Assembly (NCBI GenBank): GCA_035221665.1
Contig: CM069156.1
Coordinates: 41,726,001 to 41,790,000, forward strand
Origin: Okamejei kenojei
Taxonomy: Eukaryota
Length of the DNA: 64,000 nucleotides
Reading direction: 5' to 3'
Shown here: piece after piece, positions 12,001-18,000 of the stretch
Layout: the number at the start of each line of letters is the position of its first letter
Numbering within the stretch: position 1 is the first letter of the stretch
Position numbers: made by a program

Positions 12001-15000
12001 AGACATTGGTAATGGGCCGGATAGCATCCATGGAGAACATGGATAGGTGACGTTTAGGGTCGGAACTAAATCTGAAGAAGGGTCTCTAACCGAGTTTTCA
12101 CCTACCCACGTGCTCCAGGGATGCTACCTGAGCAGCGATGTTACTCCGGCATTGCGTGTCTTTCCTTACAATTATAGCTCACGGCTGGGAGTTCATTGGC
12201 GAAATCAGTAGGAGGTTGAGAGGTGAACCATGACCACGTTGAATGGTCCAATGAGCGCACGGATCCGAAGGATCGACTTCGGCTTCTTATGTCATTATGT
12301 TTCCCTCCCTCTGACATGTTGAATATTGCAGCGTCGGTAGCCTCGGAATCGAACAACGTGCCTGGAGTGCATCTGATTACAAACGGAACGGACAATATTT
12401 GACGGATGGATCAGAGCGGAAGAGTCCAGCTCCGTGTTTCATGTGTGTGTGTGGTGTGTGTCCACCCCAGCCCCACCCCCAAATTTAACCAAAGAGCGGC
12501 GAGATTGCGCATTTAGCATCCAGAGGGAGCGGTGGTGGGGTGGGGGGGTAGGTGGAAAATGGGGAGTAGAATAAACACGTGAGATTGCGCTGGAGGTAGG
12601 GGAGACGGGACGTAGAATAGTGGGACCGGCAGACGGCGGCAGACGGCGGAAGAGGTCGGTGCGGGACACAGAGTGGTATTGATCAAGAGGAGCAGAATGA
12701 GCCGTTTGAGCGGACCTGCTTGTAATTATGTATAAGGCGGCTCCTGATCGCCACGTCTTTGCGCCAAACCCCTCAATGTACTGCGAGAAACCGCGTGAAA
12801 ATAGACCAATGGAATCACACCGCACTTTTTCCTCTTTATTGAGAGCTGAGATACACTAGATCCAATCACAACGCGGTTACTGTCTACAAGGGAATCTCCC
12901 CCCACTCTACAGACAGAGGCGGTGAGACACAGGGAACAGGGAACAGGGGACACATCTACAAAGAAATTCGCACTGATCTGAGATAATTACATATTCGTGT
13001 TGTTCCCAGAAATGGACATTGCGATAGGTTACGTTGCACAAGGTGGCGGTAGACCACAGTGAAGCTCTCTCTGTGTTAAACAGCAGAGAATTGGCGGCCG
13101 ATGCCAAAGGCACGAACTCAGTTCGCGCAGGCGGACGACGAGACGGTGTGGCGCAGAGGCGAGCTCAGCGAGCTATGTCCGACGCTGCAGGAATAGCTCG
13201 AGCCCTTGTCCCATGCGGCGGCGGGGACCCGCAGGTAACTGCTCAGCCTGTACGTCTGTTCGGTGTCCGGGGTCACGGCGCCCGACGTCACCCCGCTCTC
13301 CGTCTCCACGCCGTCCACGGCCCAGCGCAGCGCCACGAAGCCCGGCTTAAAGCCGCTCACCAGGCAGCTGAGTGTGGCCGAGCCCGTGCCAGTTTCATCC
13401 GGAGACGGAGGGAGCAGGAGAAGCGAAGGCTTCCGAGACTCGTTACCTGTGTGGGGAGAGAGGCGGAGGAGAGGCATTATTAGTTGATGGACACAGACGG
13501 CAGCGCCACACACTGACCCCAACGCGAGAGAAACGAACTCGGCCACGGAAAGTGTCACTGACTGGGCGACGCGGTGGTGCAGCGGTAGAGCAACTGTCTT
13601 ACAGCGCTAGAGAGCCGGGTCGGGTCTTAAATATAGGTGCATGTCTGTACGGAGTTTGTACGTTTATCACCGTGACGTGTGTGGGGTTTCTACGAGATCC
13701 TCGGTTTTCCCCCGCACTCCTAAGACGTACAGTTGTGTAGGTTAATTAACTTGGTTTCAATGTAAAATTGTCCCTAGTGTTTGTAGGGTAGTGTTCGTTT
13801 TCGGGGATCTTTGGTCGGTGTGGACTCGGTGGCCGAAGAGCCTGTTTTCGCGCTGTATCTCTAAAACGAGGACTAAAACTAAAAGACCGTCGATGACGCG
13901 AACAATTCGTGAAAGTCGAGGAAAAGGCGCGGCTATTCAACCCAGCAGGTCTAAGCCCGCTAATGAAGATTGGCCCAGGTTAATCGCAGCTGTCGCCTTG
14001 CAGCCAACACCAGGCCGAGAGCTCTAGACCCACTTGAGTAACATCACCCCGGCCCCGACCCTCCACCTGGCGCCGCTCGTCTTTACCTCGCTCTGTCGAG
14101 ACGACTTCATTGCGGGGTTCAATAATTCCCCAGCTCTGTAATTCGGTTGAATGTGAATTTGCGAATGCAGCTATTTTAGGAGATACAGCATGGAAACGGG
14201 CCCTTCGGCCCACCATTTATCACCCGTTCACACTAGTTCTATGATATCCCGCTTCTCACCCACTGCCCGTACACTCGGGGCAATTAACCTCCAAACCCGC
14301 ACGTCTTTGGGATGTGGAGGGAAACCAGAGCAGCCGGAGGAATCCCGGGGTCATAGGGAGAACTTGAAAACCCCACACAGACAGCACCCGAGGTCAGGCT
14401 CGAACCGGGGAATCTGGCGCAGTGAGGCAACATATCTACCATTGAGCCAATGTGCCGCACCCACTTTAAGGAGTTATGGCGGGAAGTACCGGTACCGGAG
14501 AGGCCTCCGGATATGCAACACTCCATGTCAAGTGACGCAAGGGGAGCGGTGGGACGCAGCGCGGCTCCGCAAACCATTGAGAGTTGGAGACGAGGAAGCG
14601 ATCTGTTCATCCCGGATTACACCCCGAGCCGGCAGCAACACGTCCTTTCCCGCTACACTCTCTAACCGACTCGCCCAACCCGCTGCACAGTATTTTCCTC
14701 AATGTCTTTCATCAGAATGCCTGAAAATTGTCTTCCTTGTTTACCAACATTAACGCGTTTGATTGTCGCAAAGTGCGACTAGTGTTAACGATGCAGAAAT
14801 CCCCGCGGGCTAGCGTTCCCCGCAGGCGCGAATACTCTCCCGACCGCTGATGGACAGAATGGCCTCCCGCGCCGAGCAGAGACAGAGCAAGTTTTTCCGG
14901 AGCGCAGATACAAGTCCGGCGTTCCCGGACTCTGGAATGAGGACGACTGCAAAGGGAATTCAATGGAACAGAACGAGGAAGTCACTTACTATTTATATCC

Positions 15001-18000
15001 AGGATATTCCCAGGGCTGAAGAAGAATCCCACACCGCTTTCCCACACGGCACAGTAGTAGACGGCGGCGTCTCCGGGCTCCAAGGTGCCGATGGTCAGGA
15101 TGTAGCTGTTGGCGGAGGTATCTCTGGACGGTTGAAACCGGTCTGTGATCCCACTGCCACGGTATATATCATTATCCGTTTCATACTCTATCACCCACTC
15201 TGGTCTCTCCCAGGGACGCTGTCGATACCAACTTACATCGTAACTTGCAACATTTCCGTTCTGCATCCGACACTCTAAGCGGACGGTTTGTGCCGCGGAG
15301 ACAGGTCCGGACGTTGGCGTCTGATTCAGGACTGGGATCGCCAGGAGACCTTCAACAAAACACAATGAAAACCTTAAACAAAGCCTCAGAAATAATGGAC
15401 ATTCTTTAGAATGAGCTGATGAAGAGTTTCTTTAGTCCAAGGGATGTGAATTAATTGCCACAGACGGCGGTTTAGGCCAAACTAAGGCAGAGATAGATAG
15501 ATCCGTGTTTCGTATGGGTGACAGGGATTATGGGGAGAAGGCAGGAGAATAGGGTTTGGAGAAAGAGATAGATCAGCCGTGATTGAATGGCCGATCACAT
15601 ATGAACGGATGAAACGTTTAGCCGATATTTTAACGAGCCTCGTTGCAGATAATCAGTCGTGAACCAAACCGACTCACCTGCTGGGAGCAGCAGCAGAGGC
15701 CACAGGAGGTGCAGCGCTGGGGCCATTCTTCCGGACAGGCGAGCAGCCAAACTTCAGACCCACTCGTGTTGTACTGCAAAGTCCGAGAGCCGCTCGGGTT
15801 CCAGTGTCTGGAAACCAGAGCCTCTGGTTGTCTCTATTAACCGGAATGTAATGAGTGGGAGGGGCCATGAAACCTGTGTGGGCGGAGACTGATTTCCGGC
15901 GCTTTAGAATCTGCTGACGCCAAATTAAATGTCGTTGAATTCTTATTGAAATTAATTTATAATCCAAGTAGGTAAACATACCAGGAATTTGATTTACCAG
16001 CAATCATTCAAAAAAAAACAACAAGATACATAACCACATTCAAATTACACATAGACTTAAGCAGTCGGCGTGTGAGAATCCCCAGGGCCACAGCATAAGC
16101 GGAGACCCAAAGCCATCAGTTCAATGTCCGGGCCACACACGCGCTCATTCACCGTGATGTGACCAGAGTTGTACCGACCGCAGTCACTCTCTCTGCAGTC
16201 CCTGTAGCCCGAACCGTCCCGTCCCCACTCGCAGACTCCGGGATGTCCTCACGGAGCCATGTCCCTGCAAAACACCGAGATCACTGCACTCACGCCACTG
16301 CCTCCGAGTTCCCACCAGTGCAGGCAGCACGTCCATCTCGTTTTTTTCGGCGACCTCACATTCCCCACTCTGATAGAAGTCAAATAACTTATCCCTAATT
16401 TCCTCCTTTTCTCCCAGCTCCACGATGTTAAAGCCGTTGTGCAGACGAGATACGTTGAAAAAGTCGCATCTACGTCGAGGAAAGAGTTAAAAGAAGGCCC
16501 CCCCCCCCCCAACATAATACAATATGTATGTACGCTAAAAACATACAAGTAAATATAAACCAAAACAGCAACCTCTAATCTGAAAATGTTTCATCTTTGG
16601 TTGGACATAGAACATAGCACAGTGCAGCACAGGAACAGGCCCTTCGGCCCGCAATGCACGTCTCTTACCGCTAAATTCCGTATCCGCGATTAACTATATA
16701 CCAATCGTCAAATTCTGAATCTTCAACTACAGGTTTAATCTTCGGTTGTGTAAAAGCTTCAGGCTTGTGAAGATTTGATTAATATCAGGGTACATTGGTT
16801 TCGGACATTCGGATTGAGTATTGTGGTCTGAGCCGGCAGGCCATTCTGTCCATCGCTTCTATCCCACCGGTCGATCAGGTCAAAGTTGCTCCGTATCATA
16901 TTGATCAACCCTGCGCAAACACTCTCTGCCCGCAGCGAAACTGTCTCACCAATGAACAGGTTCCGATCTGGGATTGGGAAAACCTTGCAGGAAACATTAC
17001 GCATCTGTACTTTGCCTGTTTAAAATTTACTGCATAACACCCATTGACTGGCGACCGTTTCCCAAGAGCACCCGGAACGCGACCCTGGAGAATCGCGATT
17101 CGCCTCAAACAGTTGGTTCAGGCTTTGCGCAAATTAACATTATTAGGACATTGAAGATACATCAGTACAGCACATGAACCTTCGGCCTGCCAGACCAGTC
17201 GCGAAGGCAAAAGCTCCTCTCCATGTACATAATCCATATCCCACATTTCCTCGGATATACAAATGTCTCTTAAACGCCAATGTCTTAACCACCGCTCCCG
17301 GCAGCGTGATCCAGTCATCCACCACCCTCTGTGTAACACCCCTGCCCCACACATTTGATTCTTACTTTGCTACTCTCACGTTTAAAACTGTACCCTCTTA
17401 GTATTCGACTTGGGTACAATACAATACAATATATACAATTTGTCTTGGGTACAATACAATATTGATAAATGTGAGGTTATCCACTTTGAGGGCAAAAACA
17501 AGGGGGCAGATTATAATCTCAATGGGGTTAGGTTAGGTAAGGGGGAGGTACAGCGAGACCTGGGTGTCCTTGTGCACCGGTCACTGAAAGTTGGCTTACA
17601 GGTACAGCAGGCAGTGAAGAAAGCTAATGGAATGTTGGTCTTCATAACAAGAGGATTTCAGTATAGGAGTAAAGAGTTCTGCGGTTGAATAGGGCTCTGG
17701 TGTGACCACATCTGGAGTGTTCATTTTTGGTCTCCTAATTTGAGGAAGGGCATCCAGTGCAGCGTAGGTTCACGAGATTGATCCCTGGGGTGGCGGGACT
17801 GTCATATGAGGAAAGATTGAAAAGACCAGGCTTGTATTAACTGGAGTTTAGAAGGATGAGGGGGATGTTATAGAAACAAATCAAATTATAAAACGACTGA
17901 ACAAGCTAGATGCAGGAAAAATGTTCCCAATCTTGGACGATTCCAGAACCAGCGGCCACAGTCTTGGAATAAAGGGGAGGTATTTTAAGACTGAGATAAG

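What the first reader, a model, noticed from the sequence alone, without database searches (positions are those of the whole stretch)
12835..15726. Intact germline-joined (pre-rearranged) sigma-cart Ig light-chain gene
Seen: leader, V-J and C exons splice in frame into a ~245-aa chain. V and J are fused with CDR3 CAVWESGVGFFF and no RSS or intervening DNA. Known: cartilaginous fish have clustered Ig loci, and skate type I light chains are described as germline-joined, needing no RAG recombination. Inference: this is an inherited, fixed-CDR3 antibody chain that can diversify only by hypermutation or chain pairing. It raises the question of how its expression is excluded or regulated.
Basis: partly seen in the sequence, partly recalled or inferred. 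Interest (0 to 1): 0.75.

Follow-up and report, generated by a model that had tools for sequence, protein, structure and literature searches.

The report
Pre-joined skate antibody light-chain gene
This is an ordinary-looking copy of the skate type I (sigma-cart) antibody light-chain gene, whose V and J parts are already fused in the genome, a peculiarity of skates described in 1995.

Summary
On the minus strand, three exons with canonical GT-AG introns in phase 1 give 245 codons: leader 15726-15678, fused V-J 15349-14990 and C 13446-13118. An AATAAA lies at 12840-12835. V and J lie in one open exon; the text C-A-V-W-E-S-G-V-G-F-F-F is there, and no RSS heptamer lies within the gene's exons or introns.

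Searched exon by exon, the closest named protein is "type I immunoglobulin light chain [Leucoraja erinacea]". It is 84% identical over the V-J exon and 89% over the C exon. CDR1 and CDR2 are 8 and 7 residues, the sigma-2/sigma-cart signature. It is the only such cluster in the 64 kb.

Anderson et al. 1995 (abstract seen) reported at least 89 type I clusters in the skate. All were germline-joined and expressed.

- "Intact" means an open frame only. The copy has Trp at a framework-2 Gly (0 of 34 relatives) and Asn at the J-motif Thr (0 of 34).
- No Ig octamer was found upstream.
- Germline state and expression cannot be tested here.

Interest is low.

The parts
15678..15726 (-). Leader (signal peptide) exon, coding part: 49 nt from the ATG at 15726-15724, followed by a GTGAGT donor
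   Evidence: One search gives 16 codons, MAPALHLLWPLLLLPA. The first 14 residues are identical to the start of P0002. It was the third-best of 1099 six-frame segments against the family profile, at a non-significant E of 0.55. A at -3 and G at +4 around the ATG were read; the rule is recalled.
15350..15677 (-). Leader intron, 328 nt, GT...AG, phase 1
   Evidence: Its position matches the leader/V boundary of the P0002 protein.
14990..15349 (-). Fused V-J exon, 360 nt: FR1 to FR3, CDR3 and the J-like FR4 in one open frame, ending at an A|GTAAGT donor
   Evidence: 119 codons. Pfam V-set E 3.8e-14. 84% identity to the L. erinacea type I chain. AlphaFold2 model pLDDT 91.2, pTM 0.84. Foldseek best matches are antibody V domains, TM up to 0.89. 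CDR1 is 8 residues and CDR2 is 7.
15021..15053 (-). Second framework Cys codon (15053-15051) plus the 10-residue CDR3 AVWESGVGFF (15050-15021), germline-encoded with no junctional DNA
   Evidence: It has the same length as the P0002 CDR3 and differs from it at 4 of 10 residues.
14991..15020 (-). J-like FR4, FSPGNILDIN. The J motif reads F-S-P-G-N where most relatives have F-G-P-G-T
   Evidence: At the first G, 32 of 34 relatives have G and only P0002 shares S. At the T, 31 of 34 have T and 0 of 34 have N (codon 15008-15006).
15210..15212 (-). TGG codon giving Trp at the framework-2 'P-G' turn (IMGT 47 / Kabat L41; numbering recalled)
   Evidence: 33 of 34 relatives have G, 1 has A and 0 have W. 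One search gives 34 G of 35 in the other alignment.
13447..14989 (-). J-C intron, 1543 nt, GT...AG, phase 1. It carries dispersed-repeat copies at 13606-13865 and 14373-14440
   Evidence: Self-BLAST found four other copies of the 13606-13865 repeat in the window at 72-75% identity, and one other copy of 14373-14440. Rfam and tRNA scans found nothing.
13118..13446 (-). Constant-domain exon with TGA stop at 13120-13118 and a Cys three residues before the stop
   Evidence: 108 codons plus stop. Pfam C1-set E 3.7e-21. 89% identity to P0002. It agrees at 60 of 65 columns that are at least 90% conserved in 35 relatives.
12835..13117 (-). 3' untranslated region ending in the first AATAAA (12840-12835)
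   Evidence: Read. The signal motif is recalled. No transcript evidence is available.

Best explanation
This is one cluster of the skate type I (= NS5 = sigma-cart = sigma-2) immunoglobulin light-chain family. Its V and J segments are already joined in the inherited genome.

Shown here: the gene has three exons (leader, V-J, C). It would be transcribed and spliced like any light-chain gene without RAG recombination. It would yield a 245-residue chain with a fixed, 10-residue CDR3.

Inferred from the literature: the join is germline and arose from RAG-type recombination in germ cells of an ancestor. Repertoire diversity comes from the choice among many such clusters that differ mainly in their CDRs, from pairing with heavy chains, and possibly from somatic hypermutation. 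It does not come from junctions.

Inferred from sequence only: this copy is probably functional. All structural residues, splice sites and the frame are kept. The framework-2 Trp and the J-motif Asn leave that open.
For: - Exon structure and frame.
- Domains.
- Closest named protein: L. erinacea type I light chain, 84% over the V-J exon and 89% over the C exon. Its leader/V and J/C boundaries coincide with the predicted splice junctions.
- Other relatives: all other hits are the same chain type from at least 16 elasmobranch species.
- CDR1/CDR2 lengths are 8/7, matching the sigma-2 rule in PMC5985310 (passage). Table 2 of that paper equates little skate type I with sigma-cart.
- No RSS heptamer lies between 13062 and 16617.
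- Structural residues Cys23, Trp41 and Cys104 are present, as are both C-domain Cys and the C-terminal Cys.
- The V-J exon agrees at 42 of 45 columns that are at least 90% conserved, and the C exon at 60 of 65.
- The V-J exon models as a confident antibody V domain.
- Literature: PMC2192082 abstract; passages of PMC5192425, PMC4279169 and PMC2193156.
Against: - Nothing here shows that the DNA is germline, nor that the gene is transcribed.
- Trp replaces a framework-2 Gly (0 of 34 relatives have W) and Asn replaces the J-motif Thr (0 of 34 have N). Either could impair folding or pairing, or be a base-call error.
- No exact or one-mismatch Ig octamer lies within 300 nt upstream of the ATG. The nearest one-mismatch site, at 16038-16045, is 312 nt upstream. 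Such sites are no more frequent in the window than in shuffles: 60 against 76.4 expected.
- AID hotspot motifs are not enriched in the V-J exon: 27 against 32.4 +/- 5.6 in shuffles.
- No sequences of the kappa, lambda or sigma isotypes of cartilaginous fish were retrieved. The isotype therefore rests on nearest named relatives and CDR lengths, not on a tree.
Confidence: 0.85

Rival explanations
1. It is a germline-joined type I cluster that is no longer used: an open-frame pseudogene or decaying copy, silent or encoding a chain that folds or pairs poorly.
For: - There are two private replacements at near-invariant framework positions. Gly to Trp in FR2 is seen in 0 of 34 relatives, and Thr to Asn in the J motif in 0 of 34.
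- FR2 differs from the closest cDNA-type protein at 6 of 17 positions. FR1 differs at 1 of 29 and FR3 at 3 of 38.
- No octamer was recognised upstream.
- The cluster sits alone beside a repeat-rich stretch.
Against: - There are no stops or frameshifts in 245 codons, and all four splice sites are canonical.
- The gene agrees at 42 of 45 conserved V-J columns and 60 of 65 conserved C columns.
- The model is confident, pLDDT 91.2, although such models are insensitive to single replacements.
- The unusual Ser in the J motif is shared with a skate type I protein from nr, P0002, so it is a lineage trait and not damage.
Confidence: 0.18
2. The V-J join is somatic: the assembly captured a rearranged B-cell allele, and the germline locus is split.
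For: The sequence alone cannot distinguish a somatic from a germline join. Light-chain junctions without added nucleotides look alike in both.
Against: - The 1995 study found no unjoined type I gene in the skate among at least 89 clusters, using genomic libraries and amplification of genomic DNA (PMC2192082 abstract).
- Reviews state that all skate type I genes are joined.
- The CDR3 has the same length as that of P0002 and matches it at 6 of 10 residues.
- Its core W-E-S-G-V-G recurs in 2 of 35 relatives, with W-E-S-G-V-A in 2 more. All four are ray gene models.
- As general reasoning, a consensus assembly of polyclonal tissue would not take up one B-cell clone.
Confidence: 0.03
3. It is a retrocopy of a rearranged light-chain mRNA, or another V-C1 receptor chain (T-cell receptor or a surrogate-type chain), rather than a type I light-chain cluster.
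For: - V and J are fused, as they would be in a cDNA copy.
- By fold, the V domain matches VH and nanobody domains at least as well as VL.
Against: - Both introns (328 and 1543 nt) are in place at the positions expected for a light-chain gene, so it is not a processed copy.
- It is 84-89% identical to a named skate type I light chain.
- All 45 V-J hits (E <= 0.001) and all 51 C hits that carry a specific name are named immunoglobulin chains; the rest are 'uncharacterized', 'hypothetical' or 'Variable region'. None is named a T-cell receptor.
- The chain ends with Cys-Ala-Asn and a stop, with no membrane segment.
Confidence: 0.01

Closest known systems
[quoted passage not shown]
   Same: - Same isotype and same leader / V-J / C layout, with V and J joined in the genome.
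- The named skate type I protein P0002 is 84% identical over the V-J exon and 89% over the C exon.
- P0002 has the same CDR1, CDR2 and CDR3 lengths and the same odd F-S-P-G J motif.
   Different: - It is not identical to any protein retrieved.
- It has private Trp in FR2 and Asn in the J motif.
- Whether it is one of the 89 clusters of that paper could not be checked.
Type I light-chain genes of the horn shark, Heterodontus francisci
   Same: It is the orthologous isotype. Hits P0010, P0015, P0025 and P0037 are 62-66% identical over the V-J exon, with the same cluster layout.
   Different: Those genes are split, with V and J separated and able to rearrange (passages of PMC5192425, and PMC2193156). 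Here V and J are fused. The horn-shark J motif is F-G-P-G-T.
Germline-joined NS5 / sigma-2 gene of the nurse shark, partner of the germline-joined IgM1gj heavy chain
   Same: Both are pre-joined sigma-2 light chains with a predetermined CDR3. The nurse-shark gene is reported as expressed early in life (passages of PMC5192425 and PMC4279169).
   Different: In the nurse shark one of four loci is joined. In skates the whole, large family is joined. No expression or pairing data exist for this copy.
Sigma-2 genes of spotted gar, turtles and coelacanth
   Same: V and J are joined in the genome, and CDR1/CDR2 are 8/7 residues (passages of PMC5985310).
   Different: Those species have few loci (two in gar, four in a softshell turtle). 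No sequences were retrieved for comparison here. Table S5 of that paper, which lists CDR lengths, could not be seen because supplements are closed.

Membership tests
Immunoglobulin light chain, isotype sigma-2 (sigma-cart / type I / NS5) | One V-set domain followed by one C1-set domain, a Cys near the C-terminus for the bond to the heavy chain, and no membrane segment | tested here: met
   Pfam V-set 53.2 bits (cut-off 26) and C1-set 75.7 bits (cut-off 21). The C exon ends ...SSSACAN and then a stop.
Immunoglobulin light chain, isotype sigma-2 (sigma-cart / type I / NS5) | Nearest relatives are chains already classed as type I / sigma-cart | tested here: met
   The best named hit for both exons is 'type I immunoglobulin light chain [Leucoraja erinacea]', at 84% and 89%. 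Table 2 of PMC5985310 equates little skate type I with sigma-cart.
Immunoglobulin light chain, isotype sigma-2 (sigma-cart / type I / NS5) | CDR1 of 8 and CDR2 of 7 residues (IMGT delimitation) in all species that have the isotype | tested here: met
   There are 13 residues between Cys23 and Trp41, giving a CDR1 of 8. There are 59 residues from Trp41 to Cys104, which fits a CDR2 of 7 with a 38-residue FR3. The delimitation was made by hand with recalled IMGT rules. The criterion comes from a passage of PMC5985310; its Table S5 was not seen.
Immunoglobulin light chain, isotype sigma-2 (sigma-cart / type I / NS5) | Groups apart from kappa, lambda and sigma chains in a phylogeny of V and of C | not tested
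   The three protein searches returned only type I-like chains. No cartilaginous-fish kappa, lambda or sigma sequence was available for a tree.
Functional Ig/TCR variable domain | Cys23, Trp41 and Cys104 present, and the J motif F/W-G-X-G | tested here: inconclusive
   Cys23, Trp41 and Cys104 are present. The J motif reads F-S-P-G. Of 34 relatives, 32 have G at the first position, and the only other S is the L. erinacea type I protein P0002. The deviation is therefore a skate-lineage form, not a private defect. The Thr after the motif is Asn here (0 of 34).
Germline-joined Ig genes of cartilaginous fish | V and J contiguous in one exon, with no RSS and no intervening DNA | tested here: met
   There are 20 codons from Cys104 to the J donor in one open frame. 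No heptamer lies between 13062 and 16617.
Germline-joined Ig genes of cartilaginous fish | Gene keeps its introns (leader intron and J-C intron), i.e. it is not a processed copy | tested here: met
   The introns are 328 and 1543 nt with GT-AG ends.
Germline-joined Ig genes of cartilaginous fish | The join is present in DNA of non-lymphoid or germ cells | not testable with these tools
   There are no reads and no information on the tissue. The claim rests on the 1995 abstract and reviews.
Germline-joined Ig genes of cartilaginous fish | The joined gene is transcribed and spliced | not testable with these tools
   No transcript data are available. The splice model agrees with the domain boundaries of P0002.
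Cluster-type Ig locus | One V(J) and one C within a few kb, repeated as many independent clusters | tested here: inconclusive
   The cluster spans 2892 nt from the ATG to AATAAA. It is the only one in the window. Of 1099 six-frame segments, only its own exons match the family profile, and tblastn with three family proteins finds only these two places. Other clusters, if any, lie outside the 64 kb.

The most novel reading that the evidence does not exclude
The fixed CDR3 may itself be an old, selected binding site. The core W-E-S-G-V-G of this skate gene recurs in gene models of stingrays and manta rays. In one search it is seen in 2 of 35 relatives, with W-E-S-G-V-A in 2 more. Sigma-2 genes are also joined in gar, turtles and coelacanth (PMC5985310 passages).

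On this reading the join predates the spread of skates and rays, and perhaps much more. Some joined sigma-2 chains would then act as inherited, innate-like recognition units. The private Trp and Asn of this copy would be a step in such a specialisation rather than decay.
Probability: 0.1. Interest if true: 0.45.

Novelty: already known. Interest (0 to 1): 0.15.

Why it matters
Pre-joined antibody genes are a textbook exception to the rule that antibody genes are assembled in lymphocytes. They bear on how RAG recombination arose and on how a cell with many ready-made light-chain genes expresses only one. This copy adds no new principle. It is a well-placed single cluster in a long assembled stretch. 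Its private codons would let expression and hypermutation be followed for one defined locus. How light-chain exclusion works in skates remains open, and the library search turned up no paper on it. I recall a 2017 J Immunol paper on light-chain isotype exclusion in sharks, which was not seen.

Tried and rejected
- **Third protein search:** the search among proteins of similar length to the V-J exon, meant to catch partial genomic V-J entries, gave 1 hit among 1 candidate.
- **Ig octamer upstream:** there were 2 exact matches in the window, neither near the gene. There were 60 one-mismatch matches against 76.4 expected, the nearest 312 nt upstream. This is no evidence either way.
- **AID hotspot motifs:** density is not enriched in the V-J exon, 27 against 32.4 +/- 5.6, with 865 of 1000 shuffles at or above the observed value. 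The per-CDR counts are too small to read.
- **RNA scans:** Rfam and tRNA scans, run to name the SINE-like repeats of the J-C intron, gave 0 matches each.
- **Fold search:** Foldseek confirms an antibody V domain but does not separate light from heavy. The top matches are nanobodies and VH at TM 0.89, while light chains of 8sgg reach TM 0.80-0.82 at 39-42% identity.
- **PDB sequence searches:** the lists are swamped by multi-domain antibody constructs. Only the per-domain alignments are informative.
- **Rejected readings:** retrocopy, because the introns are kept; T-cell receptor or other V-C1 chain, because of the named relatives and the C-terminus.
- **Not used:** the genome-contig scan, since that collection holds only bacteria and archaea. 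No related loci from other elasmobranch genomes could therefore be read.

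
Full report
**What is there**

The gene reads on the minus strand.
- The leader exon runs from the ATG at 15726-15724 to 15678 and is followed by GTGAGT. It gives 16 codons plus one carried base.
- A 328-nt intron ends in AG at 15351-15350.
- The next exon, 15349-14990, is 360 nt. Its in-exon frame (15347-14991) gives 119 codons without a stop. They run from framework 1 through ...YYCAVWESGVGFFFSPGNILDIN to an A|GTAAGT donor.
- A 1543-nt intron ends in AG at 13448-13447.
- The last exon, 13446-13118, gives 108 codons, with a Cys three residues before the TGA.
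- The first AATAAA downstream is at 12840-12835.

The three exons add up to 735 nt, or 245 codons. Both introns are in phase 1, with split codons G|GT and A|GT. The finding's coordinates run from the ATG to the poly(A) signal, and its description is correct. One search was an off-frame translation of mine and was replaced.

The splice model rests on the exon boundaries coinciding with the domain boundaries of a full-length relative.

**V and J are fused**

Only 20 codons lie between the second framework Cys and the J splice donor, all in one frame. The RSS heptamer consensus (a recalled motif) occurs 12 times in the window, against 7.99 +/- 3.28 in shuffles. None lies between 13062 and 16617. 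The nearest, at 13055-13061 on the + strand, is in the 3' UTR. Both introns are in place, so this is not a processed copy of a rearranged mRNA.

**What it is**

- Pfam gives V-set (E 3.8e-14) for the V-J exon and C1-set (E 3.7e-21) for the C exon.
- Against PDB sequences both exons hit thousands of antibody chains: 13430 and 10002 distinct sequences at E <= 0.001. The summed scores are inflated by multi-domain constructs. In the per-domain alignments printed (three chains), the V-J exon scores 29-48 bits against individual V domains. The best C match is the lambda constant part of 2rcj_C, at 57.7 bits.
- In the large protein set the V-J exon found 45 proteins at E <= 0.001 among 159 candidates. 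The C exon found 51 among 1350.
- The best named hit in both is "type I immunoglobulin light chain [Leucoraja erinacea]" (P0002, 246 aa), at 84% and 89% identity. The rest are light-chain models of sharks, rays and skates at 59-74% (V-J) and 65-87% (C).
- P0002 starts with the same 14 residues as the leader exon. It has ...GLLAIPVLNQ... at the leader/V junction and ...INSSESRKPS... at the J/C junction, as the splice model predicts.

By hand delimitation (recalled IMGT rules) CDR1 is 8 and CDR2 is 7 residues. A passage of PMC5985310 gives 8 and 7 as constant for sigma-2 in all species. Its Table 2 equates little skate type I with sigma-cart; its Table S5 could not be seen. Passages of two reviews give the same synonymy: type I = NS5 = sigma-cart = sigma-2. 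A tree against kappa, lambda and sigma chains of cartilaginous fish was not made, because no such sequences were retrieved.

An AlphaFold2 model of the V-J exon alone, built with an alignment of 35 sequences, is confident (pLDDT 91.2, pTM 0.84). Its best structural matches are antibody V domains. Nanobodies and VH lead at TM 0.89, and light chains of 8sgg reach TM 0.80-0.82 at 39-42% identity. The fold test confirms an antibody V domain but does not separate light from heavy.

**How intact it is**

The frame, four canonical splice sites, the two Cys of each domain, Trp41 and the C-terminal Cys are all present. For the conservation count, 35 of the 45 relatives were used. Ten were dropped because their length lay outside 230-262 aa.
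- The V-J exon agrees at 42 of 45 columns that are at least 90% conserved.
- The C exon agrees at 60 of 65 such columns.
- The leader agrees at 3 of 3.

The five C differences are conservative. Three have 0 or 1 sharers among the 35 relatives; the other two have 2 sharers each.

In the V-J exon three deviations stand out.
- Ser stands at the first Gly of the J motif. It is shared only with P0002 among 34 relatives, so it is a skate-lineage form.
- Trp stands at the framework-2 Pro-Gly turn (33 G, 1 A, 0 W of 34).
- Asn stands at the Thr after the J motif (31 T, 0 N of 34).

Against P0002, framework 2 differs at 6 of 17 positions, framework 1 at 1 of 29, framework 3 at 3 of 38 and CDR3 at 4 of 10.

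No exact Ig octamer (a recalled motif) lies near the gene: there are 2 matches in the window, at 1554 and 44275. The nearest one-mismatch match is 312 nt upstream of the ATG, and such matches are not enriched, 60 against 76.4 expected. An A/T-rich TTAATAGA at 15840-15833 is only a candidate TATA element.

"Intact" is therefore shown for the reading frame and architecture, not for function.

**Surroundings**

This is the only light-chain cluster in the window.
- A profile of the 35 relatives was run against all 1099 six-frame segments of at least 35 residues. It hits only the V-J exon (E 1.8e-63) and the C exon (E 6.6e-64). The leader comes next at E 0.55.
- tblastn with three family proteins finds the same two places.
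- About 12.8 kb downstream and 48 kb upstream hold no other cluster.

The gene lies in the most G+C-rich part of the window, 0.52-0.54 against 0.35-0.51 elsewhere. The J-C intron carries dispersed repeats. The upstream 17-64 kb is full of repeats and retroelement pieces, described under things noticed. One run of N (23835-23992) was left as it is. Nothing in the window was taken for human.

**How it works**

Shown: the gene needs no recombination to encode a complete light chain with a fixed CDR3.

From the literature:
- Anderson et al. 1995 (abstract only) characterised at least 89 type I clusters in the skate and found none unjoined. Differences among them were concentrated in CDRs, with replacement exceeding silent change. 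The joined genes were expressed and possibly somatically mutated. [quoted passage not shown]
- Lee et al. 2000 (passages) argue that joined shark light-chain genes arose by RAG-type recombination in germ cells. They recall that horn-shark type I genes are split while the skate homologue is entirely joined.

Inferred for this copy: it is one germline-encoded specificity among many. Diversity arises from which cluster a B cell expresses, from heavy-chain pairing and perhaps from hypermutation.

A count of AID hotspot motifs gave no support for special targeting. How one cluster is chosen is unknown. Passages of PMC2435157 deal with heavy chains in the nurse shark. The search found no paper on light-chain exclusion in skates or sharks in the library. 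I recall such a paper in J Immunol 2017 but did not see it.

**Rivals**

- A silent or decaying copy is the serious one, at about 0.18. It rests on the two private framework changes and the missing octamer.
- A somatic join captured by the assembly is unlikely, at about 0.03, given the 1995 result. It cannot be excluded without reads.
- A retrocopy or a non-Ig chain is contradicted by the introns and the named relatives.

**Novelty and verdict**

Both restate what has been known for skates since 1995, so the finding is already known and of low interest.

The boldest reading left open concerns the CDR3. Its core recurs in ray gene models, in 2 of 35 relatives plus 2 near-matches. Sigma-2 genes are also joined in gar, turtles and coelacanth. 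An old, selected, inherited binding site is therefore conceivable.

**What stayed unchecked**

- The full text and sequences of the 1995 paper.
- Supplementary tables.
- Any related locus in other elasmobranch genomes.

Recalled and not seen: Criscitiello and Flajnik 2007; Shamblott and Litman 1989; Rast et al. 1994.

Noticed in passing
window 45143-48138 (-): This is the virus-like stretch: a non-LTR retrotransposon (LINE-like). Three separate open frames within these bounds carry a GDSL-type esterase domain (E 1.2e-11), an apurinic-type endonuclease domain (E 6.5e-14) and a reverse transcriptase domain (E 7.8e-37). The endonuclease and reverse-transcriptase parts, normally one protein, lie in different frames, so there is at least one frameshift; no fuller count was made.
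   Followed up: partly
window 39892-40422 (-); repeat families linking about 20.9-22.3 kb, 34.6-36.1 kb, 39.4-40.7 kb and 45.8-50.2 kb: There is a further reverse-transcriptase fragment (RVT_1 E 1.3e-09). Several partial copies of what looks like the same retroelement family are 61-96% identical to one another (families D1, D3, D5, D7).
   Followed up: no
window 19236-20108 (+): This is a fragment of a Tc1/mariner-type DNA transposase. Two neighbouring open frames match HTH_Tnp_Tc3_2 (E 1.4e-05, below Pfam's cut-off) and the end of DDE_3 (E 5.2e-08). Only parts of each profile are covered.
   Followed up: no
window 20213-22263 and 33601-36095; also 24584-24883/41089-41388, 26104-26403/43123-43422, 38444-38743/60725-61024, 40428-40727/61573-61872: The region upstream of the gene is a patchwork of recent duplications. 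Pairs of 300-nt reference pieces are 93-98% identical at spacings of 13-22 kb. None includes the light-chain exons.
   Followed up: no
window 13606-13865 and 14373-14440 (J-C intron); 14186-14216 and 16625-16655: SINE-like dispersed repeats lie inside and beside the gene. The first has four other copies in the window at 72-75% identity. A 31-nt motif recurs 2439 nt apart at 81%. There is no Rfam or tRNA match.
   Followed up: partly
window 15326-15318 (-), V-J exon residues 8-10: An N-Q-T glycosylation sequon lies at the start of framework 1. N-x-S/T stands at the same columns in 23 of 34 relatives.
   Followed up: partly
V-J exon, CDR3 (15050-15021, -), compared with P0006, P0008, P0011, P0017: The CDR3 core W-E-S-G-V-G is shared with two ray gene models, and W-E-S-G-V-A with two more, out of 35 relatives. 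Their framework 2 is quite different. Whether those loci are joined could not be read.
   Followed up: partly
V-J exon model m5221ceda1823: By fold the V domain matches nanobodies and VH domains (TM 0.89) at least as well as light-chain V domains. In the printed PDB sequence alignments, VH domains score about as high as V-lambda domains and above V-kappa.
   Followed up: no
window 11667-11694: There is a run of 28 C about 1.1 kb downstream of the gene's poly(A) signal.
   Followed up: no
window 23835-23992: There is a run of 158 N. It was left untouched.
   Followed up: no
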